DNA from: a virus
Lineage: Duplodnaviria > Heunggongvirae > Uroviricota > Caudoviricetes
IMG/VR virus record: IMGVR_UViG_2547132488_000009
Span: 1-25,241 of that record
Length of the DNA stretch: 25,241 nucleotides
Strand: one strand, 5' to 3'
Part shown: positions 1-21,841 of the stretch, in pieces
How positions within the stretch are numbered: the first letter of the stretch is position 1
Layout: every line of letters begins with the position of its first letter
Notes under the pieces: model-generated
What the model saw: only the letters and a program-made list of their open reading frames with translations
Database searches by the model: none
What the model was told of the DNA's origin: nothing
Position numbers and translations under genes: made by a program

Positions 1-378
1 AATTTCAAAAGCATCAATGACAAATGGGGGCATCATATGGGTGATCAAGTCATAGTAATGGTTACCAGAATAATAAAAAAATCCATCAGGAAAGAGGATA
101 TATTAGGGCGCTTAGGCGGTGAGGAGTTCGGTATTATCATTAAAGGTAATACTCAAAAGCTCTTGCTATCAATTGCAGAGCGAATCAGAAAAAACATTGA
201 AGAGCAATGCTCGGAAAAATTATTATCGCATGGACCTGAGAAAATAACTGTCAGTATTGGTTGCTTTACTTCAAAAGAGAATAATCTCAGTCCATCTGAA
301 ATGTTAGTCAATGCCGATAAAGCGTTATATCAAGCCAAAAGAACCGGAAAAAACAAGGTGATAACTCACTCAAAATAA
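1..378 (+). CDS. Diguanylate cyclase, GGDEF domain C-terminal part (5' end lies outside the window)
   Basis: Frame is open from position 1 (NFKSINDKWGHHMGDQ...). It contains a GGEEF active-site motif preceded by an RxxD I-site (RKED) at the usual spacing, and a C-terminal ALYQAKRTGKNKV motif typical of GGDEF domains. The region is markedly AT-rich. Confidence 0.8.
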   Translation, partial: NFKSINDKWGHHMGDQVIVMVTRIIKKSIRKEDILGRLGGEEFGIIIKGNTQKLLLSIAERIRKNIEEQCSEKLLSHGPEKITVSIGCFTSKENNLSPSEMLVNADKALYQAKRTGKNKVITHSK

Positions 379-583: not shown

Positions 584-778
584 TCAGTCCAGTTTCCAGA
601 CAACCAGTGCGTCACCTTTTTGAAGGCGCTTTAAAGCACGTTTTAATCCAGGTCGGCCTGTCCTTATTCCGCTTAATTTATCTTCAAATATTTGTTCACA
701 TCCTGCACAAACAAGAGCGTTTCGTTGCAGGTCTGTATTCTGGTCATTTGTTGATACCCTTACATAGCCAATCAGCAC
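584..778 (-). pseudogene. pin: Pin/Gin/Hin-family serine DNA invertase, N-terminal fragment only (about 64 codons, truncated)
   Basis: From a GTG start at 778 (GGGAGA Shine-Dalgarno about 6 nt upstream) it reads LIGYVRVSTNDQNTDLQRNALVCAGCEQIFEDKLSG...GDALVVWKLD, the invertase catalytic N-terminus with the active-site Ser region. A stop follows directly after KLD, and none of the three minus frames of 379..583 encodes the expected RLGRS... continuation. Confidence 0.85.
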
Positions 779-832
779 GCTGAATCTCCCGTCCAAAAGC
801 ACAAATCATGCCATGCAGGCCAGAAACCGCCA

Positions 833-858
833 TTATCTAAAACCTCGGTTTACAGGAA
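833..858. promoter_or_regulatory. gix/pix-type 26-bp inversion crossover site (left)
   Basis: TTATCTAAAACC-TC-GGTTTACAGGAA: two 12-bp half-sites around a central dinucleotide, differing by one base from the Mu gixL sequence as I recall it. It is the inverted partner of the site at 3886..3911. Confidence 0.8.
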
Positions 859-1803
859 ACGGTAAATCAGGCTTCTGGCGCATTACAGAAAAACCAGAAC
901 GGCGCAGATATTCCGGGAAAAGATACCTTCACCAAAAACATTGGTGCCTGCCGCGCATATAGCGCATGGCTGAATATTGGTGGCGATAGTCAGGTCTGGA
1001 CAACTGCGCAATTTATTTCGTGGCTGGAGAGTCAGGGGGCATTTAACCATCCTTACTGGATGTGCAAAGGCTCATGGGCTTATGCAAATAATAAGGTTAT
1101 TACAGATACAGGTTGCGGAAATATTTGTCTTGCAGGTGCTGTGGTGGAAGTTATTGGCACTCGCGGCGCAATGACCATACGCGTTACTACGCCGAGCACG
1201 TCCAGCGGTGGCGGAATTACTAACGCTCAATTCACTTATATTAATCATGGTGATGCTTACGCTCCTGGCTGGCGACGAGACTACAACACGAAAAACCAGC
1301 AGCCTGCATTTGCTTTAGGGCAAACAGGACGCAGGGTCGCAAATGATAAAGCTGTTGGCTGGAACTGGAATAGCGGTGTTTATGATGCAGATATCAGTGG
1401 TGCATCGACATTAATCCTCCACTTCAATATGAATGCGGGGAGTTGCCCTGCTGTACAGTTCCGCGTGAATTACAGGAACGGCGGTATTTTTTATCGTTCA
1501 GCGCGTGATGGTTATGGCTTTGAAGCTAACTGGTCAGAGTTTTACACCACAACACGCAAACCCTCTGCGGGGGATGTTGGTGCATATACGCAGGCAGAAT
1601 GTAACTCAAGGTTTATTACAGGTATTCGCCTTGGCGGTCTGTCATCTGTTCAGACATGGAAAGGCCCCGGCTGGTCTGACAGGTCAGGTTATGTCGTTAC
1701 GGGTTCAGTTAACGGAAACCGTGCTGAATTAATTGATACAACTCAGGCAAGGCCAATTCAGTATTGCATTAATGGGACGTGGTATAACGCGGGGAGTATT
1801 TAA
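841..1803 (+). CDS. Alternative side-tail-fibre C-terminal cassette, silent in this orientation (no start codon of its own)
   Basis: The frame is open from the stop codon inside the left crossover site and reads NLGLQETVNQASGALQKN..., the same junction peptide as Stf at the right site. It ends ...RPIQYCINGTWYNAGSI, parallel to the expressed Stf end ...RPIQKYINGTWYNVVQV. Confidence 0.75.
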   Translation, partial: NLGLQETVNQASGALQKNQNGADIPGKDTFTKNIGACRAYSAWLNIGGDSQVWTTAQFISWLESQGAFNHPYWMCKGSWAYANNKVITDTGCGNICLAGAVVEVIGTRGAMTIRVTTPSTSSGGGITNAQFTYINHGDAYAPGWRRDYNTKNQQPAFALGQTGRRVANDKAVGWNWNSGVYDADISGASTLILHFNMNAGSCPAVQFRVNYRNGGIFYRSARDGYGFEANWSEFYTTTRKPSAGDVGAYTQAECNSRFITGIRLGGLSSVQTWKGPGWSDRSGYVVTGSVNGNRAELIDTTQARPIQYCINGTWYNAGSI

Positions 1804-1805
1804 CG

Positions 1806-2339
1806 ATGATGCACTTAAAAAACATTACTGCTGGCAACCCTAAAACAAAAGAGCAATACCAGCTAACAAAGCAATTTAACATCAAATGGCTTTATTCAGA
1901 TGATGGAAAAAACTGGTATGAGGAACAAAAGAATTTCCAGCCAGACACTTTGAAAATGGTCTATGACCATAACGGCGTTATTATTTGTATTGAAAAGGAT
2001 GTTTCAGCAATTAATCCAGAGGGTGCAAGCGTCGTTGAATTACCTGATATTACAGCAAATCGCCGGGCTGATATTTCGGGGAAATGGATGTTCAAAGATG
2101 GCGTAGTGATAAAGCGAACTTATACCGAGGAAGAGCAGAGGCAACAAGCGGAAAATGAAAAGCAAAGCCTGTTGCAACTTGTCAGGGATAAAACCCAGCT
2201 ATGGGACTCACAGCTACGGCTGGGCATCATTTCCGACGAGAATAAACAAAAATTAACCGAGTGGATGCTCTATGCGCAGAAAGTCGAATCTACAGACACT
2301 TCCGGCCTGCCAGTAACGTTTCCCGAACAACCAGAATGA
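1806..2339 (+). CDS. tfa: Tail fibre assembly protein Tfa, partner of the silent cassette
   Basis: 177 aa starting [40 protein letters not shown], the conserved Tfa N-terminus. It starts 2 nt after the cassette stop. Confidence 0.85.
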   Translation: MMHLKNITAGNPKTKEQYQLTKQFNIKWLYSDDGKNWYEEQKNFQPDTLKMVYDHNGVIICIEKDVSAINPEGASVVELPDITANRRADISGKWMFKDGVVIKRTYTEEEQRQQAENEKQSLLQLVRDKTQLWDSQLRLGIISDENKQKLTEWMLYAQKVESTDTSGLPVTFPEQPE

Positions 2340-2342
2340 GAG

Positions 2343-2362
2343 AAGGCCCGCTATCGGGCCTT
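2343..2362. terminator. Hairpin between the convergent tfa genes (possible bidirectional terminator)
   Basis: AAGGCCCG-CTAT-CGGGCCTT, a perfect 8-bp stem with 4-nt loop, followed on the plus strand by AATTTTTA. Confidence 0.5.
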
Positions 2363-2367
2363 AATTT

Positions 2368-2895
2368 TTACTCTGGTTTTTGTGGCCATTCAGGATTTGC
2401 CGTATCCACACGGCTGACCAGAACACTGTAGCGTTCCCATGCTTCCAGTCGTGTGCGTTCCTCGTCTGTTGCCATATTCAGCCTGACAGCGCGTTCCAGC
2501 GGTTGGATGACTGATTCAGCTTCGGAAAGCAATGCGGCCTTTTGTGATTCGGCCTGTTGTTGTTGCTCGTCTGCCGTATAAATCCGTTTAACCACAGCTC
2601 CGTCCCTAAACATCCACTTACCGGAATCATCAGCGCAGCGGTTGGCTGTAATATCTGGAACCTCAACGACGCTATAACCTTCAGGGTTAAGCGTGGAGGC
2701 ATCTTTGGTGATGGCGACAATAATATTATTTGCATCGTAAACAATCTTTATTGTGTCTGGCTGAAAGTTTTTCACTTCCTCATACCAGTTTTTTCCGTCT
2801 TCGGACCATAACCAGATAACATCAAAATTCTTTGTTAGCTGATATTGTTCTTTTGTTTTTGGATTTCCAGACTTAATATTTTTTAAATGCTGCAT
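2368..2895 (-). CDS. tfa: Tail fibre assembly protein Tfa, partner of the expressed fibre C-terminus
   Basis: 175 aa starting [40 protein letters not shown]. It is a paralogue of the plus-strand tfa with a divergent C-terminal half and overlaps the stf stop. Confidence 0.85.
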
Positions 2896-2898
2896 AAA

Positions 2899-5472
2899 TT
2901 ACACCTGTACGACGTTATACCATGTGCCATTGATGTATTTTTGTATTGGTCTGAATACTGCCGGATCATCGCCATCAACTGCACCGATAATGCCAAGCCC
3001 CGTAATTGCATGACCTGATTTCTCATACATCACGCCTTTTTGCATAGTCTGAACAACACGTGTACCAAGTCGGACATCTCTCACATAACGTGAGTCAAAA
3101 TTACCATAATTGCCGGGAATAACTTGCGCACCGCAAAGCCAGTTGCCATTGTTGTCCATGTACGCCTGACCATCGGTGCCATTGGCTGTCCTTGAGTTAT
3201 TAATCATGTAGATGCCAAATTGCTTATTCCCCAGTCCACCAATCATAAATTTGCGATCAGCGTGGTCCTGACGAAGTAATGCCTGCGCACCATCGGTGGA
3301 TACCGCATTGCGTCCCAAAATAACATTCTGGTCACGCATATGAATCCACATGCCGGTACTACTGTTAATTGCAAAACGGTTTGCAAATATATCCCCTGTA
3401 ACATCAAGACCATGCCCCATGCTTATCCGACCAGTTCTGAGATTAAGCGTAAAGGGGCGTAGTGGCCCTATATCACCATTTTCTCCCTCATTCTCTCGTG
3501 TAGGGATGATATGCAGGCATTCTTCAGAACGACGAAAAATAGCACCAAAAGATGAATTAAATATCCTCAGTGCATTGACTGTCGATATTTTTACTTCACT
3601 GCTGAAAAGGGCTTTAACAAGGACAGACAAAGCATCCCATTTAAGAGTCATCAGGTCTTTTGTTGTGGTGCTCTGGCGGCTTCTCCATTTGAAATATTCA
3701 TTGCCGTTGTCGCCTGTTTCAAACCACATGTATGAATCAGTGTCGCTGTCGGCATTATTTTTAAAACCAATCTTTGCCCAGTCAGTATTTCTAATCCAGG
3801 CAAGGATTGAGTCGTTTTCAAAAGTAAGCCCACCGGACAAGGTATCGCCATTCTTTTGCACGGCGTTCCTGGCCCTGTTTACCGTTTCCTGTAAACCGAG
3901 GTATTCGATAACGGCAGCAACGGTCGATTTCGCAAGAATATCCCGCCCGACTTTTGTCAGGGTTGCCAGGCTGGCGACATCATTCCCCGTAAAATACGGA
4001 AACCTGTCTGCCGCAGTAGCAAGCCCGGCCAGCGCCGTCAGGGTGGCATCTTTCGGTTGCTTACCCGCAAGCGCGTTAGTCATGGTGGTCGCAAAATTCG
4101 GGTCGTTTCCCAGCGCCGCCGCTAACTCGTTCAGCGTATTCAGTGCGTCAGGTGACGAATCTACAAGGGCGGCAATCGCAGCCATAACGAAAGCCGTGCT
4201 TGCGATTTGGGTATTATTAGTTCCCTGTCGCGCAGTTGGCGTTGTTGGTGTTCCGGTCAGTGCCGGGCTGTTTAATGGGGCTTTCTTGTTTGTTTCATCC
4301 ATTACCGCCTTAACCGCTTTCGATGTCGCGGCCAGTGTTTCAGACGTGCTGTTGGTATCACTACTGAGTTGTACTATCCCCTTTTTCGTCGTACTCGCAT
4401 CCTCAAGCGCCACAGCGGATGCAATATCCTCTGCCCGTTTTGCTGCCGTCCCGGCGCGCGTTGCTGCGGATTCTGCCGCACTTTTGCTCTGTGCTGCCGC
4501 CGTCGCACTGCCAGCTGCCTCTGTCGCCTTCGTGGATGCCGTCGTGGCGCTGCCTTTCGCTGCTGACGCCTGTTTAGTCGCCTCATCTTTTGAAGCAGAC
4601 GCAGATGATGCCGATGACGCCGCCGAACTGGCGGACGATGCGGCTGCCGTTTTTGAGGATTCGGCACGGGTTTCCGACGCTTTCGCATTCGTCTCAGATG
4701 TCTTCGCTGCGGAAGCAGACCTCGCAGCTGCAGTGGCCTGTTCAGTGACTTCGCCAGCCTTCGTTGTGGCTGTTGAAGCGGACGATGCAGCGCTTTCTGC
4801 CGATTTTTCAGCGGCGGTAACGCTGGCTGCCGCATTCGTTTCTGACGTTTTCGCTGCACCGGCACTGGTGGCCGCCGCGCTTTTTGAGGACTCTGCAGCA
4901 GCAGCACTTTTCGATGCCTCAGAGGCTTTTGCTGATGCCGTTCCTGCGCTGGAAGACGCTGACTGAGCCGACGACACGGCCTGTCCGGCTGACGTGCTGG
5001 CTGCGCGTGCTGAGTCTGCAGCATCAGTCGCATGGGTTGCCGCCTCACGGGCTGATGTGCTGGCATCGCCGGCTGACTTCTTCGCGGCTGCCGTGTTCTG
5101 TGCCACTGCGGACGCGTTACGCGCCACCTCTTCCACCATCACTTCAAAACGGCGCAGTGCCTCCGGCATAACATCCTCTTCCGTCATGGCACCGAGAAAA
5201 TCATTCAGCGTACCGGGTTGAGAATCTTCATACACGGTGATGGTCCCGGCATGTGACGGCGGGAATCCCTCCACCAACAGACTGACGCTGTACTGACCGT
5301 ACTCAACGTCCATACTGTAACGCCCGGCTTCATCCGGATTTTCAGAGGCCACCGTGTTCACCACAACCGTGGTGCTGTTACGTTTTGCTTTGAGCTGAAT
5401 GGTGCAGTTCTGTATCGGTTTTCCTGCACCGTCTTTCAGCACGCCTGAGATTTTTACTGCTGCCATATCCAC
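2899..5472 (-). CDS. stf: Side tail fibre protein Stf (constant N-terminal part plus the currently joined variable C-terminus)
   Basis: 857 aa. The N-terminus (MDMAAVKISGVLKDGAGKPIQNCTIQLKAKRNSTTVVVNTV...) matches lambda Stf as I recall it. It has a long Ala/Ser/Thr-rich central region and crosses the right crossover site near residue 525. The start could instead be the third codon (5466). Confidence 0.9.
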   Translation of the reverse strand: MDMAAVKISGVLKDGAGKPIQNCTIQLKAKRNSTTVVVNTVASENPDEAGRYSMDVEYGQYSVSLLVEGFPPSHAGTITVYEDSQPGTLNDFLGAMTEEDVMPEALRRFEVMVEEVARNASAVAQNTAAAKKSAGDASTSAREAATHATDAADSARAASTSAGQAVSSAQSASSSAGTASAKASEASKSAAAAESSKSAAATSAGAAKTSETNAAASVTAAEKSAESAASSASTATTKAGEVTEQATAAARSASAAKTSETNAKASETRAESSKTAAASSASSAASSASSASASKDEATKQASAAKGSATTASTKATEAAGSATAAAQSKSAAESAATRAGTAAKRAEDIASAVALEDASTTKKGIVQLSSDTNSTSETLAATSKAVKAVMDETNKKAPLNSPALTGTPTTPTARQGTNNTQIASTAFVMAAIAALVDSSPDALNTLNELAAALGNDPNFATTMTNALAGKQPKDATLTALAGLATAADRFPYFTGNDVASLATLTKVGRDILAKSTVAAVIEYLGLQETVNRARNAVQKNGDTLSGGLTFENDSILAWIRNTDWAKIGFKNNADSDTDSYMWFETGDNGNEYFKWRSRQSTTTKDLMTLKWDALSVLVKALFSSEVKISTVNALRIFNSSFGAIFRRSEECLHIIPTRENEGENGDIGPLRPFTLNLRTGRISMGHGLDVTGDIFANRFAINSSTGMWIHMRDQNVILGRNAVSTDGAQALLRQDHADRKFMIGGLGNKQFGIYMINNSRTANGTDGQAYMDNNGNWLCGAQVIPGNYGNFDSRYVRDVRLGTRVVQTMQKGVMYEKSGHAITGLGIIGAVDGDDPAVFRPIQKYINGTWYNVVQV
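3886..3911. promoter_or_regulatory. gix/pix-type 26-bp inversion crossover site (right), inside the stf coding sequence
   Basis: TTCCTGTAAACC-GA-GGTATTCGATAA. One half-site is identical to the left site in inverted orientation and the central dinucleotide is complementary, as required for inversion. It encodes the EYLGLQETVN segment of Stf. Confidence 0.8.
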
Positions 5473-5475
5473 TCC

Positions 5476-5504
5476 ACAAAAAAGCCCGCCTGAACCGGCG
5501 GGCT
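5476..5504 (-). terminator. Intrinsic terminator downstream of lom
   Basis: On the minus strand, AGCCCGCC-GGTTCA-GGCGGGCT (8-bp GC-rich stem) is followed by UUUUUUGU. It ends 3 nt before the stf start codon. Confidence 0.7.
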
Positions 5505-5530
5505 GTCATAACACTGTGTTACCTGGCTAA

Positions 5531-6130
5531 TCAGAATTTATAACCGACACCCACGATGAAACCGTCAGTGCGCCAGTCGCCACTGCCGGAGCCTTCATAA
5601 GCAATATCAATGGCCACGGACTCGGTCGGGTTAAACTGCACGCCAGCCCCCCACGCCAGAGACGTGTTGCTGTGGCGACCGTCATCACTTCCGGTCAGCA
5701 CATCGTGCGTTTTCCCCTTGTTGTCGGTCACCTGCAGATAATCTCCGGAAAAAGTCGACACACGGCTGTAAGCCACACCCGCCATCGCATACGCGCTGAA
5801 CCATTCATTCACGCGCACAGACGGCCCCGCCATCACGCTGAACCCGCGGTTACGCACAGAATCCTCATGCCATCGGGTATCGCTGTAATGCGTTTTTTGC
5901 TCATCTTTGGCATTGGCATAACTGAATGACGTCACAACACCCAGCATGTCCGTAAACTCATAACGGTATTTCACGTTAATCCCGTTCAGATCATCACTAC
6001 CGGGAACGTTCGTCGAGGCATGGAGATACCCCGCGCTCAGCGTGGACTGATGTTCTGCTGCACTCGCTGGCGTGGCAGCGACGACCTGCCAGACTACTGC
6101 GGACAAAATAACAGCACATAATTTACGCAT
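5531..6130 (-). CDS. lom: Lom outer-membrane protein (Ail/Lom/OmpX/PagC beta-barrel family)
   Basis: 199 aa with an N-terminal signal peptide (MRKLCAVILSAVVWQVVAATPASA), alternating beta-strand pattern and C-terminal ...GVGYKF. It sits between J and stf as in lambda. Confidence 0.9.
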   Translation of the reverse strand: MRKLCAVILSAVVWQVVAATPASAAEHQSTLSAGYLHASTNVPGSDDLNGINVKYRYEFTDMLGVVTSFSYANAKDEQKTHYSDTRWHEDSVRNRGFSVMAGPSVRVNEWFSAYAMAGVAYSRVSTFSGDYLQVTDNKGKTHDVLTGSDDGRHSNTSLAWGAGVQFNPTESVAIDIAYEGSGSGDWRTDGFIVGVGYKF

Positions 6131-6152
6131 AATTACCTCTCGCTTTTCTGCA

Positions 6153-6179
6153 ATAAAAAAGGCGCCATTTCTGGCGCCC
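6153..6179 (-). terminator. Intrinsic terminator between J and lom
   Basis: On the minus strand, GGCGCCA-GAAA-TGGCGCC (7-bp stem) is followed by UUUUUUAUU. Confidence 0.7.
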
Positions 6180-6197: not shown

Positions 6198-9100
6198 TCA
6201 GCTAATCGTGATGCCTGCAGTGGCTTTCTTCATCACCACAACCAGCAAATCGCTGATACTTGCTGTGGGATACCAGTTATTTACCAGCCATGCTGACACC
6301 GAAAACTCCAGTGTCATGTGACCGTGACCGGCAGGCATATCAATAACACCACTGTAAATCAGCGTATTATCCAGCGCGGTACGGTTATAAATTTCAGCAC
6401 CGTTTTTCCGTACTATCAGACGGCATGAGGAGTAAATATCAGTATGCTCTTTCTCATGTTTAGCGCCGCTGAATGCCACCGCCGGAATAACAATCTGCCG
6501 GTCAAACGGCTGATCGTCATAAACCCTGACGGTAATGGTTCCTGATGGCCACCGCTCCGGTGCACGGGAGTCCCGGGGGAAAGCTTTGCCCACTGTTTTA
6601 ACGAGATCGCCTTCAATCTGGTTGGCGGACAATTTTCCCAGAACCCGACAGTTCTCGTTAATCGTGACGTTGTTGAGCGTCCCGGAGTTCGCATTCACGT
6701 TACCGCTGATATCGGCATTTTTCGCCGTCAGCCGCCCGTCCGGTGTCAGGGAAAATGCCGGAGGATTACCGCCGCTGGTAATGGTCGGAGCCGTCAGGCG
6801 TTTCAGGAACACGTCGTTCATGAATATCTGATCGCCCTGACCAACAAACATCGGCTTTGTGTTGCCATTCGCAGGATTAATCATCGCAATCCGGTCAGCA
6901 GCCAGAAGCACCTGACTCTGCATACCTGCTGGCGTATTCTCAATACCGGCTCCGATACCCGCAATATAAAGGCGTCCGTCCTTCATCTGCTGCAGTTTCA
7001 CGGCCCACATGCTGTTCAGGTTATTATTTGTATCAACCTGAACTTTCTGTATCTGCTGGATTGCCGCACTCTGATTTTCCAGTTTTTTATTGACGGTCTG
7101 CGTGATTTCATTGCTGACATTCGTAATGGACGTCCTGATTTCAGCCAGGTCCGGCGCAAGCTGACCGTTATCAATCTGCGTCCACAGCTCCTGGGCCAGA
7201 TGTGTTTTCCCGATTTCTCCTTTGAAAAAATCCAGGTAACCTTCCGCATCATCGCTCGCCCGACCGACAGCCTCCACGAATGCCGATTTGCCGACTGTGT
7301 TCACACTGCGAACGTAAAAATAATAATCATGGCCCGGCTTAATATTGATACTGGCGGCTATCCAGTACAGCGCCGTGCCAAGATAGCGGGCTGTGGTTTC
7401 AACCTGCCTGATATCGGTAATCCGCTTTTCCGAGAACCAGAACTCAAACTGTACCGTCGGGTCATAAACCGCAAGATGCGGCGTGGCGGTTATCTGAAAA
7501 TAGCCCGGCGTCAGCTCAATCCGCGACGGCGCTGCCGGTGCGGCAATCCGGAACGATACCGACGCCGGATCGCCCTGCTGCCCCCACGCATTTACTGCCC
7601 GGACTGTCAGCCTGTAGTTCCCCAGAGCCAGTTGTGTGAAGCGGTAAGTGGTTTCCGTCGTCCGGGCCGTGCTGACCAGCCGCTCACGGCCGTCATCCGC
7701 TGCCACGGTCAGGCGAAGCAGGAAGCTCACGCCCTTCACCACCTTCGGCGTGTCCCAGCGGGCCAGCACCTGATACTCCCCGCTGTCTGCGGTGACTTCT
7801 GCGGTCAGGTGCTGCACCGCTGGCGGCGTGACACCATTCACCGTGCCGCTCTGGTCGCCGTCAAAGTGCGCCCCGTTATCCACGATGGCCTCTTTTTCCG
7901 GTACATGCTGCACGGCGGTGATGGCATACGTGCCGTCGTCGTTCTCACGGATACTCACGCAGCGGAACAGGCGCTGGCGCAGCGTCGGCAGCTTCAGCCC
8001 CCACACGCTGTATTCGGCAACGCCGTCAGGAACACGGCTCACTTTCACCTTCACGCCGTCGGTGACGGACTGGACCTCCACGCTGACCGGATTACCCTGA
8101 CCGTCAACCAGGCTTATCAGCGTGGTACCGGAGGATGGCAGCGTGATTTCACGGTCGAGCGTCAGCGTCCGGGTCTGGCTGTTTACCGCCAGCACGCGCC
8201 CGCCGGTGCTGATACCGGCATAGTCATCATCGCAGATTTCAATGACATCGCCCGGTACATGGCGAAGCCCTTCGGCACCCACGCTGAAGTCCACGGTCTG
8301 CGTTTCCAGCAGTTCTGTTTTAATCAGCCACAGCCCGGCGCGGTGTGCCTGCCCCCGGCTGGTACAGCCAAAGGCATCCATCTTCGTGACGTTACGACCG
8401 TAACGGGCAATGGCCTGCGTGTCCTCCACAAGCTCTGTCGCCGTCTCCCAGCCGTTATTCGGGTCAATCCAGTTCACCTCAACGGCATTATGGCGGTCCT
8501 TCAGGGCGCTGAAGCTGTAGCGGAACGGCGCGCCATCATCCGGCATCACCACATTACTGCGGTTATAGGTCCACACCTTATCCGACGGTCGGTCCTGCAC
8601 GAACGTCAGCGTCTGCCCGTTCCATACCGGCATACAGCGCATCGCCGAGCAGAAATCACTGAGCACATCCCACGCCTTGCGCTGTGTGGTCAGGTACGCA
8701 TTACAGGTGATGCGCGGCTCCGTGCCGCCAAAGCCGTCCGGCACTGACTGGTCGCAGTACTGGCCGATGACATACAGCGCCCATTTGTCCACATCCGCCG
8801 CACCAAGACGTTTCCCCATGCCGTAGCGCGGATGGGTCAGCATATCCCACAGACACCAGGCCATGTTGTTGCTGTATGCTGGTTTAAACGTTCCGTCCCA
8901 GATACCGCTGTATTGCCGCGTCTGCGGGTTATAGTTCGACGGCACCTGCAGAATGCGCCCGCGCAGATGATAATTACGGCTCACCTGCTGGCTGCCGAAC
9001 TGCTCCGAATCCACCTGCACGCCGACCAGTGCCGTGTTCGGGTAGCCCTGTTTCACATCGATGATTTCGGTGTATGACGACCAGAGCGTTTTGTTCTGCA

Positions 9101-9677
9101 GCTGGTCTGTGGTGCTGTCCGGCGTCATCCTGCGCATCCGGATATTGAACGGGCGCGGCGGCAGGTTACCCACCACCACCGAGGCCAGATACTGCGAGGT
9201 GGTTTTGCCCTTAATGGTGATGTCTTTTTCCGTCACCCAGCCACCATTACGCTGTATCTGAACCAGCAGGCGGACTTCCGACGGATTCCTGTCCCCCTTT
9301 GAGGTGGTTTCCACCAGTGCCTGCACGCCGAAGGTAAAACGCAGTCGGTCAATGTTTGCCGACGTGATGGTCCGGGTGATCGGCGTGTCGTATTTCACTT
9401 CCGTACCCAGCACCGTCTCGGAGCCGGAGGATTCAAATCCCTCCGGCGGTGTCTGCTCCTGCTCACCGGCCCGGAACACCACCGTGACGCCGGAGATATT
9501 GGTATTCCCCTCACTGTCCAGCACTGGCGTACTGTTCAGCAGCACGCTTTTTAATCCATCCACCGGACCTTCAACCGGCCCTTCGCTGATGGCATCGATC
9601 ACACTCAGCAACTGCGTGGACTTCAGGTTGTCCTTCGCTTCGCGCGGGGTATGCCCCTTACTGCTGCCTTTACCCAT
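6198..9677 (-). CDS. J: Central tail fibre / host specificity protein J
   Basis: 1159 aa starting [45 protein letters not shown], which matches lambda gpJ as I recall it. Size and position after I fit. Confidence 0.93.
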
Positions 9678-9737
9678 TCCTCACGCTCCATAAACGACAA
9701 AACCGCCCGCAGGCGGTTTCACATAAAACATTTTGCA

Positions 9738-15866: not shown

Positions 15867-15890
15867 AAAAAAGCCCCGAATAACCGGGGC
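15867..15890 (-). terminator. Terminator-like hairpin immediately after the major tail gene V
   Basis: On the minus strand, GCCCCG-GUUAUU-CGGGGC is followed by UUUUUU, just upstream of the G ribosome-binding site. Confidence 0.55.
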
Positions 15891-18287: not shown

Positions 18288-18306
18288 AAAAAAAGCCCTT
18301 ACGGGC
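18288..18306 (-). terminator. Weak terminator-like hairpin after the capsid gene
   Basis: On the minus strand, GCCC-GUAA-GGGC is followed by UUUUUUU. The stem is short. Confidence 0.35.
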
Positions 18307-18330
18307 CATCTGAGTTGTTGTCTGCGACGT

Positions 18331-20391
18331 TTACGCCGTACATTTCACCAGACCGCGGTGATCAACTGGCGCGACACCTGCGTCAATACGCACTTTCGTT
18401 GTCACGCCATCCACACTGAAGCCCTCCATCTGATCAATATATGGCGTATCCACACCGTTGAGATAAGCCACTTCGATGGTATCCGTACCTTTCGCCGCAG
18501 CCAGATAAAAGGTGGTCTGGCTGTTATCATCAAGACGAGGCTCTGCAATAACGGTCGCAAAATCTTTCACCGGGTTAATAATACCGGCGTTAATGTCAGC
18601 CCCCTTGACACTTGAGGAGCGAATGACCTGGTTAGCAACAGACTCCATCGCTGTCGGTACCAGTACGAACGCAGGACGAATATTCAGATGACGCTCCCCC
18701 TCTTTCTGAACGCGCATCAACTGACGGGCTTTATCCAGTGATGCCACGTCCATTGCAGCGTTCTCCAGTACGTTTGCATGTTTCGCTTTATCGAACAGGC
18801 TCACATTATCCGTGGAGATTTTCGGGTTAGATGTCAGAATGGCATAAACCAGATCGGCAATCGTGGATTTTGCCGCACGCCCCAGTTTCATCGGAACATC
18901 GGTCAGCATATTCAGATCATCGTTGATAATGGCCTGACGGGTGATGCTGAACAGTTCACCATAGGTCGCCAGTGCAATCGTGGCCTGTTTATCTCCGGTG
19001 GTGACGTATTTATATTCCGCCCCCTCACGCACCTGACGCAGAGCACTGAAGCCCCCCATACCCACACGATGGGCAATTTTAAAATCAGACAACTGACCTT
19101 TCCGGGTCCACTGTTCGTAAGTCTCAGGGGCTTCTTCCCATCCCTGCAGAATGGCTTTGTTCGCGACATCCAGCAGAATATTACCGAAATCAGACGTACT
19201 GTGCGTGAACGCTGCCCCGACCATCTGCATCGGGTTATACCCGGAAACCCCAATCCCCCTTTCTGTCAGTGACATTCGGGCATATTCACGCAGGGTCATC
19301 CCGTTATAGACGTTATCCTGTTCACGCTCAGCAAATCCGGCACGCGCCATCAGCGCCTGACGGATCCCGTCCCCCACAAAATTACCGTTTCCAGCATAAA
19401 TATGGGCCGGGGTATTTTTATTTGATGGTGAAAATTCCTTACCCATTTCGTTAAGTAATTTCTCACGGGCCTGCTCAAGCGAGCACTCCGGATCGGAAAG
19501 ACAACTGGCCTGCAATGTCTGATAGCGCCCGCCAAACATACCAAACAGTTCATTAATACCACTCACACGTGCTTTTTGCTCTGCCAGTACCTGCGCACGG
19601 ATACTGCTTTCATCTGTGGAAGGTGCATTTGTGGTAGTCGCGGTTGTGGCAACCGGAGCCGTAGTCTGATCCTGTGTCTGAGATGCAGTATTTTTGTTTT
19701 CAGGTTCACGCGTTGCACTGTTGCGTGGCGGAATAATCATATTTCGAATGGATTCCGGCATTTTTTTAAATTCCTCTGTACGTTTTGACTGAATACATGC
19801 CATTGCCTTAACTTCCGGTGTCACCTGGTCAGCAAATCCGTGTGCCAGACATTCGGCACCGGACATCCAGGTTTCATCCGCCAGCATGGCAGCAATTTCA
19901 TCGGTGGTTTTCCCGGTTTTCTGCGCATAAGCAGGCAACAGGACCGACTCAACTTTATCAAGCAGGTCGGCATAATCACGCATATCATCCGCATCGCCAC
20001 CACTCACTCCCCATGGTTTATGGATCATCATGAATGCGTTTTCCGGCATGATGACGGGATCACCCACCATTGCAATGACCGATGCCATGGATGCCGCGAC
20101 ACCATCCACATAAACAGTGATGGACGCCCCATGATTTTTCAGCGCATTAAAAATGGCGATGCCTTCAAAGACATCGCCACCCGGTGAATTGATATGGAGA
20201 TTAATGTGGGTGATATTACCCAGCGCATTCAGATCGCTGACAAACTGCTTCGCCGTAACTCCCCAGAAACCAATCTCGTCATAGATATAAATATCTGCGT
20301 CACTTTTATGACCCGCCTTCATTCTGAACCAAGAATTATTCTTCAGGCTGGCCTTCGGTTCGCCGCGAAACCACGCGTTCTGTTTCAGCAT
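18331..20391 (-). CDS. Single-ORF prohead protease (ClpP/S49-like), linker/scaffold region and major capsid protein (HK97 fold)
   Basis: The start is taken at 20391 (MLKQNAWF, GGAGGTGG upstream). The N-terminus has ClpP-like protease motifs (INSPGGDVFEGIAIFNAL...DGVAASMASVIAMVGD...HKPWG), the centre is a Thr/Ala/Pro-rich linker, and the C-terminal roughly 350 aa is capsid-like (...KVRIDAGVAPVDHRGLVK). Confidence 0.8.
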   Translation of the reverse strand: MLKQNAWFRGEPKASLKNNSWFRMKAGHKSDADIYIYDEIGFWGVTAKQFVSDLNALGNITHINLHINSPGGDVFEGIAIFNALKNHGASITVYVDGVAASMASVIAMVGDPVIMPENAFMMIHKPWGVSGGDADDMRDYADLLDKVESVLLPAYAQKTGKTTDEIAAMLADETWMSGAECLAHGFADQVTPEVKAMACIQSKRTEEFKKMPESIRNMIIPPRNSATREPENKNTASQTQDQTTAPVATTATTTNAPSTDESSIRAQVLAEQKARVSGINELFGMFGGRYQTLQASCLSDPECSLEQAREKLLNEMGKEFSPSNKNTPAHIYAGNGNFVGDGIRQALMARAGFAEREQDNVYNGMTLREYARMSLTERGIGVSGYNPMQMVGAAFTHSTSDFGNILLDVANKAILQGWEEAPETYEQWTRKGQLSDFKIAHRVGMGGFSALRQVREGAEYKYVTTGDKQATIALATYGELFSITRQAIINDDLNMLTDVPMKLGRAAKSTIADLVYAILTSNPKISTDNVSLFDKAKHANVLENAAMDVASLDKARQLMRVQKEGERHLNIRPAFVLVPTAMESVANQVIRSSSVKGADINAGIINPVKDFATVIAEPRLDDNSQTTFYLAAAKGTDTIEVAYLNGVDTPYIDQMEGFSVDGVTTKVRIDAGVAPVDHRGLVKCTA

Positions 20392-21841
20392 TACCACCTC
20401 CTTTATCGCAGGCCGGATCGGTATCAAACACCAGATCCAGCCTGCGGTTTTCATCAATTTCGGCCTTGCGCCGACGTTTAACATCATCCGGATTACGACC
20501 ACTGGCGCGCACCCAGTCTGATTCTGTTGCCGCACCACCACGAATCTGGATTTTCCAGGCTTCAGCTTCCTTGACAGGATCAATCCACGGCATGACCGGA
20601 CCAGAATATGTTGCGTTATATAATGTTTTTATATCCACATCCGACGGAATTTTCAGCAACCCCGCGGCAACCACCATATTCAGCCATGCCCGGTACACCG
20701 GACGGGTTACAGCACCAATAAAACAGTCCTGCAGGATCAGATAGCCATCGGTGGACTCAACCAGCTCCTGTCGCTGGGAACTGTAGGTACCGTTATAGTT
20801 ACGTGCTGCACTGGAAAAACTCAGACGAGTGCCCGCCGCCATGGCCCGCAACTGACCATTACGAAAAGTTTCCAGATTAGGGTTAGGCCGATCAGATTTG
20901 ACCATGCCAATATCTTCCCCCTTACGCAGATCGTCATAAATAATGCCGGGAGTGATATGCAGTTCCCGATCATTATCTTTATTCGTCACAGGTTCCTCAT
21001 AATCCTGCCCGTCTCCTTTACGAATATACAGCCCCAGTGCCGCAGCAATGCGCGCCGCTACCAGCTCAGCATCTTCATATTCCTTAAGCGCACTGATCCG
21101 CATCAGCACACCTGACAACATGGATGTGCCACGCGTCTGATGAAGGCGGCGGGTAAACTTCAGATGCACCATATTTTCAGCGGCGATCTCTTTGGTTTCG
21201 CTCTGTCGCCCGGTAACCGGATAATTTTTATAAACCAGGTATTTTTTCGGCCTGCCCCATTCATCCAGAAAAACCCCCTGATTCATTCCCGCAGACTCAT
21301 CACTGAGCATGGGCACAAAATCCGGCTCCATTGCCTCGAGCCAGAAAGGCACACCGGCAGTCCGCGCCAGCCCGGCACCTGCGCCTCTGACCATCTGGGC
21401 AAACACTTCTCCATCACGTAACCAGGTACGCAACAGCAGACGTTCGAGCATGGGGCGCGTATGCTGCCCGGTCACATCCGGACTGACAGACCATTCCGCC
21501 CACAAACGACGGATAATCATTGCCAGCTCTGTAGCCATATCACCATTTTTCAGTAATGGTTGTGGTTCAACAATGATCCCCTTTGCACCAATCACCCGCT
21601 CCTCAAGTTTGTCGAAAACACCGATTACCAGGTCATGATTGATGTCCAGAAAACGGGCCTGTTCCCGCAGAGAAACCGCCCCGTACTTACTGAGCTGGTC
21701 GGCAGAACGGTTTTCCCGTCGGGCTTTGTGTGTGCGGGTGGGTTTCACGGCCTCATAAGCGCGAATTAACGCCCTTGAGCGCAACCTCGCAGCTTTCCAG
21801 CCGGGAGAAAAAACACCAATCACATCATCAAGAATTGCCAT
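20336..21841 (-). CDS. Portal protein
   Basis: 501 aa, between the gpW-like gene and the protease-capsid gene, with a TGATG stop/start overlap with the upstream gene. Size and synteny fit a portal. Confidence 0.72.
   Translation of the reverse strand: MAILDDVIGVFSPGWKAARLRSRALIRAYEAVKPTRTHKARRENRSADQLSKYGAVSLREQARFLDINHDLVIGVFDKLEERVIGAKGIIVEPQPLLKNGDMATELAMIIRRLWAEWSVSPDVTGQHTRPMLERLLLRTWLRDGEVFAQMVRGAGAGLARTAGVPFWLEAMEPDFVPMLSDESAGMNQGVFLDEWGRPKKYLVYKNYPVTGRQSETKEIAAENMVHLKFTRRLHQTRGTSMLSGVLMRISALKEYEDAELVAARIAAALGLYIRKGDGQDYEEPVTNKDNDRELHITPGIIYDDLRKGEDIGMVKSDRPNPNLETFRNGQLRAMAAGTRLSFSSAARNYNGTYSSQRQELVESTDGYLILQDCFIGAVTRPVYRAWLNMVVAAGLLKIPSDVDIKTLYNATYSGPVMPWIDPVKEAEAWKIQIRGGAATESDWVRASGRNPDDVKRRRKAEIDENRRLDLVFDTDPACDKGGGNAETERVVSRRTEGQPEE

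What the first reader, a model, noticed from the sequence alone, without database searches (positions are those of the whole stretch)
5476..6179. lom sits as an insulated moron between two intrinsic terminators inside the tail operon
Clear GC-rich hairpins with U-tracts lie directly downstream of J and downstream of lom on the coding strand, bracketing this outer-membrane protein gene. The downstream terminator U-tract abuts the stf ribosome-binding site, so stf would depend on antiterminated late transcription while lom could be expressed separately in the lysogen. Ail/Lom-family proteins are associated with adhesion and serum resistance.
Basis: partly seen in the sequence, partly recalled or inferred. 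Interest (0 to 1): 0.4.

Follow-up and report, generated by a model that had tools for sequence, protein, structure and literature searches.

The report
Terminator-flanked lom gene in a prophage
The outer-membrane-protein gene lom of this lambda-like prophage does lie between two conserved terminator hairpins, but the arrangement is common, already annotated in public phage records, and the upstream hairpin belongs to the tail genes, not to lom.

Summary
On the minus (coding) strand, an 8-bp GC-rich hairpin plus a T6 run (6179..6152) follows J. A second one (5504..5478) follows lom, and its T-run ends 2 nt before the stf Shine-Dalgarno. Both are kept by selection: 23 distinct variants of hairpin A pair in 100% of cells, with two compensatory pair changes.

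- Lom-less relatives (phage 21, HannyBb and 72 IMG/VR contigs) carry the same hairpin A directly against the stf ribosome-binding site. Hairpin A is therefore a resident J/stf junction element.
- The lom insert is a ~673-bp cassette: a 21-nt leader, lom and hairpin B.
- The cassette has no room for a promoter, and no sigma-70-like site stands out in the 470 nt upstream.
- Similar hairpins occupy the other large gaps of the late operon here, in lambda, HK97, HK022 and N15. The bracket is not specific to lom.

The GenBank record of phage 434 already annotates both terminators. Lom as a lysogen-expressed moron is textbook.

Verdict: real, ordinary, already known.

The parts
6198..9677 (-). J, tail tip / host specificity gene (1159 aa)
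   Evidence: ORF list. Pfam Phage-tail_3, Ig_J, FNIII-A_GpJ, Ig_GpJ_C and Phage_Tail_Tip.
6152..6179 (-). Hairpin A plus T-run: GGGCGCCA gaaa TGGCGCCT TTTTT ATT. Terminator-like element resident at the 3' end of J.
   Evidence: -15.7 kcal/mol. Covariation in 23 variants. The same element abuts the stf RBS in lom-less phages. Annotated 'terminator' in phage 21 and phage 434 records.
5479..6151 (-). lom cassette, present or absent relative to lom-less relatives: 21-nt leader with SD GAGAGG (6141..6136), lom, a 26-nt spacer and hairpin B with its T-run. The boundaries are ambiguous by 1-2 T.
   Evidence: Comparison of the window with phage 21, HannyBb and 72 IMG/VR junctions.
5531..6130 (-). lom, Ail/Lom family outer-membrane beta-barrel protein (199 aa)
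   Evidence: Pfam PF06316 1.8e-122, positions 1-199 of 199; OMP_b-brl 1.8e-21.
5478..5504 (-). Hairpin B plus T-run: AGCCCGCC ggttca GGCGGGCT TTTTT. The terminator of lom, abutting the stf RBS.
   Evidence: -17.6 to -18.2 kcal/mol. Nine variants all fold. Annotated 'terminator' in the phage 434 record.
2899..5475 (-). stf side tail fibre gene with its SD (GGAG 5475..5472, ATG 5466)
   Evidence: Pfam phage_tail_N 6.7e-70. The ORF listing gives GTG 5472 as the first possible start, but the SD spacing and the lambda Stf N-terminus MAVKISG favour ATG 5466.
9700..9719 (-). Terminator-like hairpin in the I|J gap (AAACCGCC tgcg GGCGGTTT TGTCGTTT)
   Evidence: The same element is in lambda. Analogous annotated terminators lie before J in HK97, HK022 and N15.
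15873..15890 (-). Terminator-like hairpin in the V|G gap (GCCCCGG ttat TCGGGGC, then T6)
18294..18307 (-). Terminator-like hairpin after the capsid gene (GGCCC gtaa GGGCT, then T7)

Best explanation
This is the lom accessory-gene cassette of a lambda-like prophage, sitting in the J-stf junction of the late (tail) operon.

Shown by sequence comparison:
- The ancestral or alternative state is J, hairpin A with its T-run, then the stf RBS.
- The lom state has a ~673-bp cassette placed exactly between the T-run of hairpin A and the stf RBS. The cassette holds a 21-nt leader with its Shine-Dalgarno, lom, and its own hairpin B with a T-run. Hairpin B therefore recreates the same 'terminator abutting the stf RBS' junction.

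Inferred from established lambda biology:
- During lytic growth, Q-modified RNA polymerase from pR' reads through A, B and the similar hairpins elsewhere in the operon. lom and stf are then transcribed as late genes.
- Unmodified polymerase stops at each hairpin. Stray transcription in the prophage therefore cannot run from J into lom or stf, or from lom into stf.

The cassette carries no promoter of its own. Any expression of lom in the lysogen would need a weak or activator-dependent promoter overlapping the end of J and hairpin A, or leak-through of hairpin A. The sequence does not reveal either.
For: - Gene identities.
- Hairpin anatomy and energies.
- Excess over shuffles and intergenic placement.
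- Compensatory changes in hairpin A. All hairpin B variants keep the fold.
- Lom-less junctions with an identical hairpin A fused to the stf RBS: phage 21, HannyBb, and 72 of 80 fetched IMG/VR loci out of 97 exact pattern matches.
- The same three J 3' alleles occur with and without lom.
- Unrelated hairpin plus T-run elements abut the stf RBS in the alternative lom-stf spacer (L039 type) and in PhiR12_4. The same holds before the I, J and fibre genes of HK97, HK022 and N15, where the records call them putative terminators.
- The phage 434 record annotates both lom-flanking hairpins as terminators.
- No promoter-like site lies upstream.
- Literature: lambda lom is counted among prophage-expressed moron genes (PMC7067206, PMC3594210). 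The late genes are one ~27-kb pR' transcript (PMC10695390).
Against: - Termination and Q-dependent read-through were not measured. The window does not contain Q, pR' or qut.
- Whether lom was inserted or deleted relative to the lom-less state cannot be resolved.
- Lambda and the window share 90-95% identity only from the last ~70 nt of lom onward. Recombination boundaries therefore also lie inside lom, not only at the hairpins.
- Published reports that lom is expressed in lysogens (lambda; Phi24B, PMC3342100) imply that a promoter exists somewhere in at least some phages.
Confidence: 0.7

Rival explanations
1. Classic self-contained moron. lom is transcribed in the repressed prophage from its own promoter within ~150 bp upstream of 6130. 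Hairpin A insulates it from the upstream side, and hairpin B is its terminator.
For: - Lambda lom is listed among genes expressed in lysogens (PMC7067206; Chen et al. as cited in PMC2147009).
- Phi24B lom mRNA is at similar levels in lysogen and induced cells (PMC3342100).
- In lambda, a -10-like TATTAT lies in the T-run right after its J|lom hairpin.
- Hairpin B is a good terminator for such a unit.
Against: - Only 21-24 nt lie between the T-run of A and the lom ATG.
- A promoter upstream of A would be terminated by A.
- The best PWM score in the 470 nt upstream is 5.6 bits, and 157 sites in the window are as good or better. The tool scan finds no coding-strand promoter there. No PhoP box was found.
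- Hairpin A is identical in lom-less phages.
- G+C content is not distinct.
- A lambda lysogen microarray did not detect lom, and the authors state that little is known about the lom promoter (PMC2147009).
Confidence: 0.25
2. The hairpins act mainly on the late mRNA rather than as insulators of lom. They would be 3' stability barriers or partial attenuators that set the relative amounts of segments of the polycistronic late transcript: high for capsid, D/E and V, low for downstream genes such as stf.
For: - Hairpin plus T-run elements follow the most abundant structural genes: the capsid gene and V here and D and E in lambda.
- They precede low-copy genes (I, J, fibre) in HK97, HK022 and N15.
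- The element before stf is kept in five unrelated sequence forms.
Against: - No expression or decay data were available.
- T-runs directly after GC-rich stems are the signature of termination. Stability hairpins do not need them.
- This reading is compatible with the best explanation rather than exclusive of it.
Confidence: 0.3
3. The palindromes are chance features, or purely DNA-level features such as recombination junctions of the mosaic genome, with no role in RNA.
For: - Module boundaries and an IS200 insertion coincide with the hairpins.
- One variant (L080) has the loop of hairpin A flipped, a DNA-level event.
Against: - There is an excess over shuffles.
- T-runs occur only on the coding-strand side.
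- Compensatory substitutions and G-U intermediates work in RNA but not as DNA pairs.
- Non-homologous hairpins occupy the same position in lambda, PhiR12_4 and the L039 type.
Confidence: 0.03

Closest known systems
lom of bacteriophage lambda (NC_001416, 18965-19585) with its J|lom and lom|stf intergenic hairpins
   Same: - Same gene order: J, hairpin, lom, hairpin, stf.
- Hairpin B, the last ~70 nt of lom and the 5' end of stf are 90-95% identical.
- lom is regarded as a prophage-expressed moron encoding an Ail/Lom outer-membrane protein (PMC7067206, PMC3594210).
   Different: - Lambda Lom is 206 aa and matches at only 45% identity in the best tblastn segment. DNA identity over most of lom is 45-75%.
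- Lambda's J|lom hairpin has an unrelated sequence (CGTCCG ggaa CGGGCG), is weaker (-9.7 kcal/mol), and is followed by TTTTATTAT, which contains a -10-like hexamer.
- No lom-less relative with the lambda-type hairpin was found: 18 of 18 hits have lom.
Phage 434 (OL657226.1) and phage 21 (OL657228.1), as annotated in GenBank
   Same: - Phage 434 has the same hairpin A (GGGCACC/GGTGCC variant), the same 21-nt leader, an Ail/PagC/OmpX gene and an identical hairpin B. Both hairpins are annotated as 'terminator', each followed by an RBS.
- Phage 21 has hairpin A annotated as 'terminator' between J and stf.
   Different: Phage 21 lacks lom altogether. These are sequence annotations, not experimental mapping.
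HK97/HK022 morons gp22 and gp23 between I and J, and N15 late-operon stem-loops
   Same: Small accessory genes are inserted in an intergenic gap of the tail operon next to hairpin plus T-run elements that directly precede the RBS of the next tail gene. The records label them 'moron product' and 'putative terminator'.
   Different: The insertion site is different (I|J rather than J|stf), and so are the genes and hairpin sequences.

Membership tests
Ail/Lom outer-membrane protein family (Pfam PF06316) | Full-length match to the family HMM above the curated cut-off | tested here: met
   1.8e-122, 406.9 bits against a cut-off of 23; residues 1-199 on profile positions 1-199 of 199. OMP_b-brl also matches at 1.8e-21.
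Ail/Lom outer-membrane protein family (Pfam PF06316) | Outer-membrane localisation and an adhesion or serum-resistance phenotype | not testable with these tools
   Only literature on lambda Lom is available (Vica Pacheco 1997 and Reeve & Shaw 1979, as cited in PMC3594210 and PMC3342100).
Moron (definition quoted in PMC3594210; Juhala et al. 2000) | Extra DNA lying between two genes that are adjacent in related phages | tested here: met
   J and stf are adjacent in phage 21, HannyBb and 72 IMG/VR contigs. The cassette boundaries map to 6151 and about 5479.
Moron (definition quoted in PMC3594210; Juhala et al. 2000) | Own terminator downstream of the gene | tested here: met
   Hairpin B plus T-run lies inside the cassette.
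Moron (definition quoted in PMC3594210; Juhala et al. 2000) | Own promoter upstream of the gene | tested here: not met
   The cassette has only 21 nt 5' of the ATG. No sigma-70-like site above background lies in the 470 nt upstream, and no PhoP box. Consensus scans cannot exclude a non-canonical or activator-dependent promoter.
Moron (definition quoted in PMC3594210; Juhala et al. 2000) | G+C content different from the surrounding genes | tested here: not met
   lom is 0.49-0.57 G+C. The J 3' end is 0.47-0.57 and the stf 5' end is 0.52-0.63.
Moron (definition quoted in PMC3594210; Juhala et al. 2000) | Expression from the repressed prophage | not testable with these tools
   The literature on lambda and Phi24B is mixed (PMC2147009, PMC3342100, PMC7067206).
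Intrinsic (Rho-independent) terminator | GC-rich stem, short loop, then a T-run on the transcribed strand, placed after a stop codon | tested here: met
   Hairpin A: 8 pairs (6 GC), loop 4, T6, 18 nt after the J stop. Hairpin B: 8 pairs (7 GC), loop 6, T6, 26 nt after the lom stop.
Intrinsic (Rho-independent) terminator | Structure maintained by selection (compensatory changes) | tested here: met
   Hairpin A: 100% of cells paired, 2 pairs with changes on both sides, 0/500 shuffles reach the score. Hairpin B: 9 variants all fold. One has a C-G to A-U change, several have G-U changes, and one has a remodelled stem.
Intrinsic (Rho-independent) terminator | Transcripts actually end there, and read-through occurs by Q-modified polymerase | not testable with these tools
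   No transcript data are available. Q, qut and pR' lie outside the window.

The most novel reading that the evidence does not exclude
The junction 'terminator T-run then RBS' in front of stf may be a reusable docking point for accessory DNA. Both the lom cassette and independent IS200 insertions land within a few bases of it. lom, having no promoter of its own, might then be expressed in the lysogen through regulated leak-through of hairpin A, or through a non-canonical promoter overlapping the terminator. Hairpin A would then be a control element of lom rather than a passive insulator.
Probability: 0.12. Interest if true: 0.4.

Novelty: already known. Interest (0 to 1): 0.13.

Why it matters
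It matters little beyond correct annotation. The result sharpens how this common prophage module is built. The resident terminator at the end of J marks the slot. The lom cassette brings only its ribosome-binding site and its own terminator. stf always sits directly behind a terminator, so it should be strictly a late (antiterminated) gene. The locus is present in 4890 of 5426 complete E. coli genomes, often in several copies. Knowing that the cassette lacks a recognisable promoter is useful for anyone who assumes that Lom is made by lysogens of such prophages.

Tried and rejected
- Rfam gathering-threshold scan of the whole window: no family.
- Sigma-70 consensus scan and a PWM (frequencies from memory, approximate) upstream of lom: nothing above background.
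- PhoP-box pattern, by analogy with pagC: no site near lom.
- G+C profile as a sign of foreign origin: not distinct.
- The 24B_1 small RNA reported downstream of lom in Phi24B (PMC4426718): its authors state that it is absent from the analogous lambda region. It concerns a different 428-nt lom-downstream region, so it was set aside.
- Search for lom-less relatives of the lambda-type J|lom hairpin: all 18 hits have lom.
- Genome-contig scan for more divergent lom contexts: only Escherichia and Shigella loci with the same flanks, plus lambda DNA contigs in unrelated assemblies.
- Liu et al. 2013 (PMC3718152) and PMC4424060, which I tried from memory as Casjens & Hendrix 2015, are not held in the library.
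- The IS200-interrupted junctions (L021, L025, L034) were first taken for module recombination. They are IS insertions.

Full report
**What is in the window**

The window carries a lambda-like late operon on the minus strand. In order it holds:
- terminase genes;
- the portal gene;
- a ClpP-capsid fusion gene;
- tail genes;
- J (9677..6198);
- lom (6130..5531);
- stf (ATG 5466..2899);
- tfa (2895..2368).

The lom product matches Pfam Ail_Lom over its full length (1.8e-122).

**The observation**

Read on the coding strand, the J stop is followed after 18 nt by GGGCGCCA-gaaa-TGGCGCCT (6179..6160). Its run of six T ends at 6155 and is followed by ATT. After that come only 21 nt (GCAGAAAAGCGAGAGGTAATT, with SD GAGAGG) before the lom ATG.

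The lom stop is followed after 26 nt by AGCCCGCC-ggttca-GGCGGGCT (5504..5483), whose T-run reaches 5478. Then come G-T, GGAG (5475..5472), 5 nt and the stf ATG at 5466.

Predicted stabilities are -15.7 kcal/mol for hairpin A and -17.6 to -18.2 kcal/mol for hairpin B. Neither hairpin has a T-run on the opposite strand, so both point in the late-transcription direction.

A strict scan (at least 7 pairs, at least 5 GC pairs, T-run) finds 5 sites in the window. One hundred dinucleotide shuffles give 1.23 +/- 1.06, with a maximum of 4. Three of the four coding-strand sites are intergenic.

**Conservation**

I fetched 80 IMG/VR loci encoding close Lom relatives and 80 of 97 IMG/VR matches to a junction pattern. 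I also took several GenBank phages.

Hairpin A occurs in 23 distinct variants. All 184 pair cells form standard pairs. Two stem positions carry fully compensatory changes, G-C to A-U and C-G to U-A, in five distinct sequences each. G-U intermediates are present. No shuffle out of 500 reaches the covariation score, and slid registers pair in only 35-64% of cells. One contig (L080) has the loop flipped from GAAA to TTTC with the stem intact.

Hairpin B occurs in nine variants:
- lambda's extended stem with a G-U pair;
- a C-G to A-U change with a new loop (L002);
- a remodelled 10-bp stem (L004);
- wobble and single-mismatch variants.

All nine fold to -12.9 to -18.2 kcal/mol and end at the T-run.

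Lambda itself has a hairpin of unrelated sequence at the J|lom position (CGTCCG ggaa CGGGCG TTTTATTAT, -9.7 kcal/mol). It has a near-identical hairpin B.

**Where lom begins and ends**

Phage 21 and phage HannyBb lack lom. Their junction reads: J stop..ATTTTATAACCCAGATAC, GGGCGCCAGAAATGGCGCC, TTTTTTATT, then TGTGGAGTGAATATG (stf). Hairpin A is therefore fused directly to the stf RBS.

The exact junction pattern occurs in 97 IMG/VR stretches. Of the 80 fetched, 72 are genuine J-hairpin A-stf junctions and 8 are chance matches. The same three J 3' alleles are found both with and without lom.

Hairpin A is therefore a resident element of the J/stf junction. The lom indel is a ~673-bp cassette (about 6151..5479) made of the 21-nt leader, lom, a 26-nt spacer and hairpin B with its T-run. 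Hairpin B recreates the same 'T-run then GTGGAG' junction in front of stf. Whether the cassette was inserted or deleted cannot be told, because both ends share T-run microhomology.

Lambda and the window are 45-75% identical across the J 3' end and most of lom. They are 90-95% identical from about 5600 (the last ~70 nt of lom) through hairpin B into stf. Recombination breakpoints therefore also lie inside lom.

**The terminator in front of stf is a general feature**

Fifteen lom loci have a different, ~150-nt lom-stf spacer. It too ends in a hairpin plus T7 directly before the RBS (AAGCCCGTGGC..GCTGCGGGCTT TTTTTATTGGTGGAAAAGTATG, -20.5 kcal/mol). Phage PhiR12_4 has yet another hairpin (-21.1 kcal/mol) plus T7 before the RBS of its stf-like gene.

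HK97, HK022 and N15 carry hairpin plus T-run elements immediately before the RBS of I, J or the fibre gene. Their GenBank records call them putative terminators and label the genes inserted next to them in HK97 and HK022 as morons.

In this window, terminator-like hairpins also fill three other gaps: capsid|next (18307..18294), V|G (15890..15873) and I|J (9719..9700). Lambda has them in D|E, E|FI and I|J. The bracket around lom is thus one instance of a pattern that runs through the late operon.

**Is lom an independently expressed unit here?**

The cassette leaves no room for a promoter. A PWM scan of the 470 nt upstream gives a best score of 5.6 bits, and 157 sites in the window score at least as well. 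The consensus scan lists no coding-strand promoter there. No PhoP-box-like site lies nearby. A promoter upstream of hairpin A would run into hairpin A. The G+C content of lom does not differ from its flanks.

Two of the defining moron features, own promoter and distinct composition, are therefore not met. Two others are met: location between genes that are adjacent elsewhere, and own terminator.

The literature treats lambda lom as a prophage-expressed moron (PMC7067206, PMC3594210). One lambda-lysogen array study did not detect it and notes that little is known about the lom promoter (PMC2147009). In Phi24B, lom mRNA was at similar levels in lysogenic and induced cells (PMC3342100).

**Most likely mechanism**

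The anatomy is shown; the function is inferred. In lytic growth, Q-modified polymerase from pR' transcribes the ~27-kb late operon (PMC10695390) through all these hairpins, so lom and stf are late genes. Unmodified polymerase terminates at each hairpin. This keeps stray prophage transcription from entering lom or stf, and any lom transcription from entering stf.

A complementary reading cannot be excluded. The hairpins may also serve as mRNA 3' stabilisers or partial attenuators that shape the stoichiometry of late products, since they follow the capsid, D/E and V genes. A chance origin or a purely DNA-level role is very unlikely, given the strand-specific T-runs, the G-U intermediates and the non-homologous hairpins at the same position.

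**Comparison with what is known**

The phage 434 GenBank record (OL657226.1) annotates exactly these two hairpins as terminators flanking its Ail/PagC/OmpX gene. Each is followed by an annotated RBS. The phage 21 record annotates hairpin A as a terminator between J and stf.

The segment 5300-6400 has matches in 4890 of 5426 complete E. coli genomes, with a median of two places per genome. The best identity is 96.6%.

The finding is real but already known in kind and in detail. The only refinement is that the upstream terminator is not lom's and that the cassette lacks a recognisable promoter.

Noticed in passing
window 584-3915 (repeats at 829-866 and 3878-3915): Invertible tail-fibre segment of the Mu G / P1 C / e14 P type. 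A 38-nt inverted repeat (92% complementary) has one arm inside stf and the other at 829-866. Between them lie tfa (-), a second tfa-like gene (1806-2339, +) and an alternative fibre C-terminus (1060-1803, +, gp37_C). Next to it is a truncated serine invertase ORF (802..584, -, Resolvase N-terminal domain positions 2-73 of 145), so the switch may be frozen.
   Followed up: partly
window 18331-20583 (-): A single 750-aa ORF combines a ClpP-type protease domain (residues 109-255) and a major capsid domain (455-747). Lambda has separate C/Nu3, D and E genes here instead.
   Followed up: no
window 9700-9719, 15873-15890, 18294-18307 (-); also 20151-20182 (-): Further coding-strand hairpin plus T-run elements lie in the I|J, V|G and capsid|next gaps. 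One 14-bp hairpin lies inside the protease-capsid ORF. Lambda has equivalents in D|E, E|FI and I|J.
   Followed up: partly
L021 about 2160-2800; L025 and L034; E. coli NR3736 (hit H87): An IS200-family element (Y1_Tnp, 5.5e-38) is inserted a few bases after the T-run of hairpin B (TTTTTTGTG|CACAGAAAACCCCC), between terminator and stf RBS. It appears in several independent contigs.
   Followed up: partly
window 2343-2362: A strong hairpin (AAGGCCCG ctat CGGGCCTT) lies between the two convergent tfa genes. It has a T-run only on the + strand, so the minus-strand late operon has no canonical terminator after tfa.
   Followed up: no
window 37-378 (+): A 113-aa ORF matches only the C-terminal two-thirds of a GGDEF diguanylate cyclase domain (profile positions 54-161). 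It is probably a truncated host gene at the prophage edge.
   Followed up: no
L216-L226 (genome contigs): Lambda-identical lom loci sit on contigs of up to ~48.5 kb in assemblies labelled Pseudomonas, Shewanella, Neobacillus, Kitasatospora, Bradyrhizobium and others. This is most likely lambda control-DNA contamination of those assemblies.
   Followed up: no
L084 1228-1437 (phage D2, OM475427.1): A 210-nt CDS annotated 'host specificity protein J' ends with the lom 3' sequence (..GGTTATAAATTCTGA) and is followed by hairpin B. It looks like a lom fragment with the wrong name.
   Followed up: partly
L080, hairpin A: The loop of hairpin A is inverted (GAAA to TTTC) while the stem is unchanged, as expected from a palindrome-mediated DNA inversion or template switch.
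   Followed up: no
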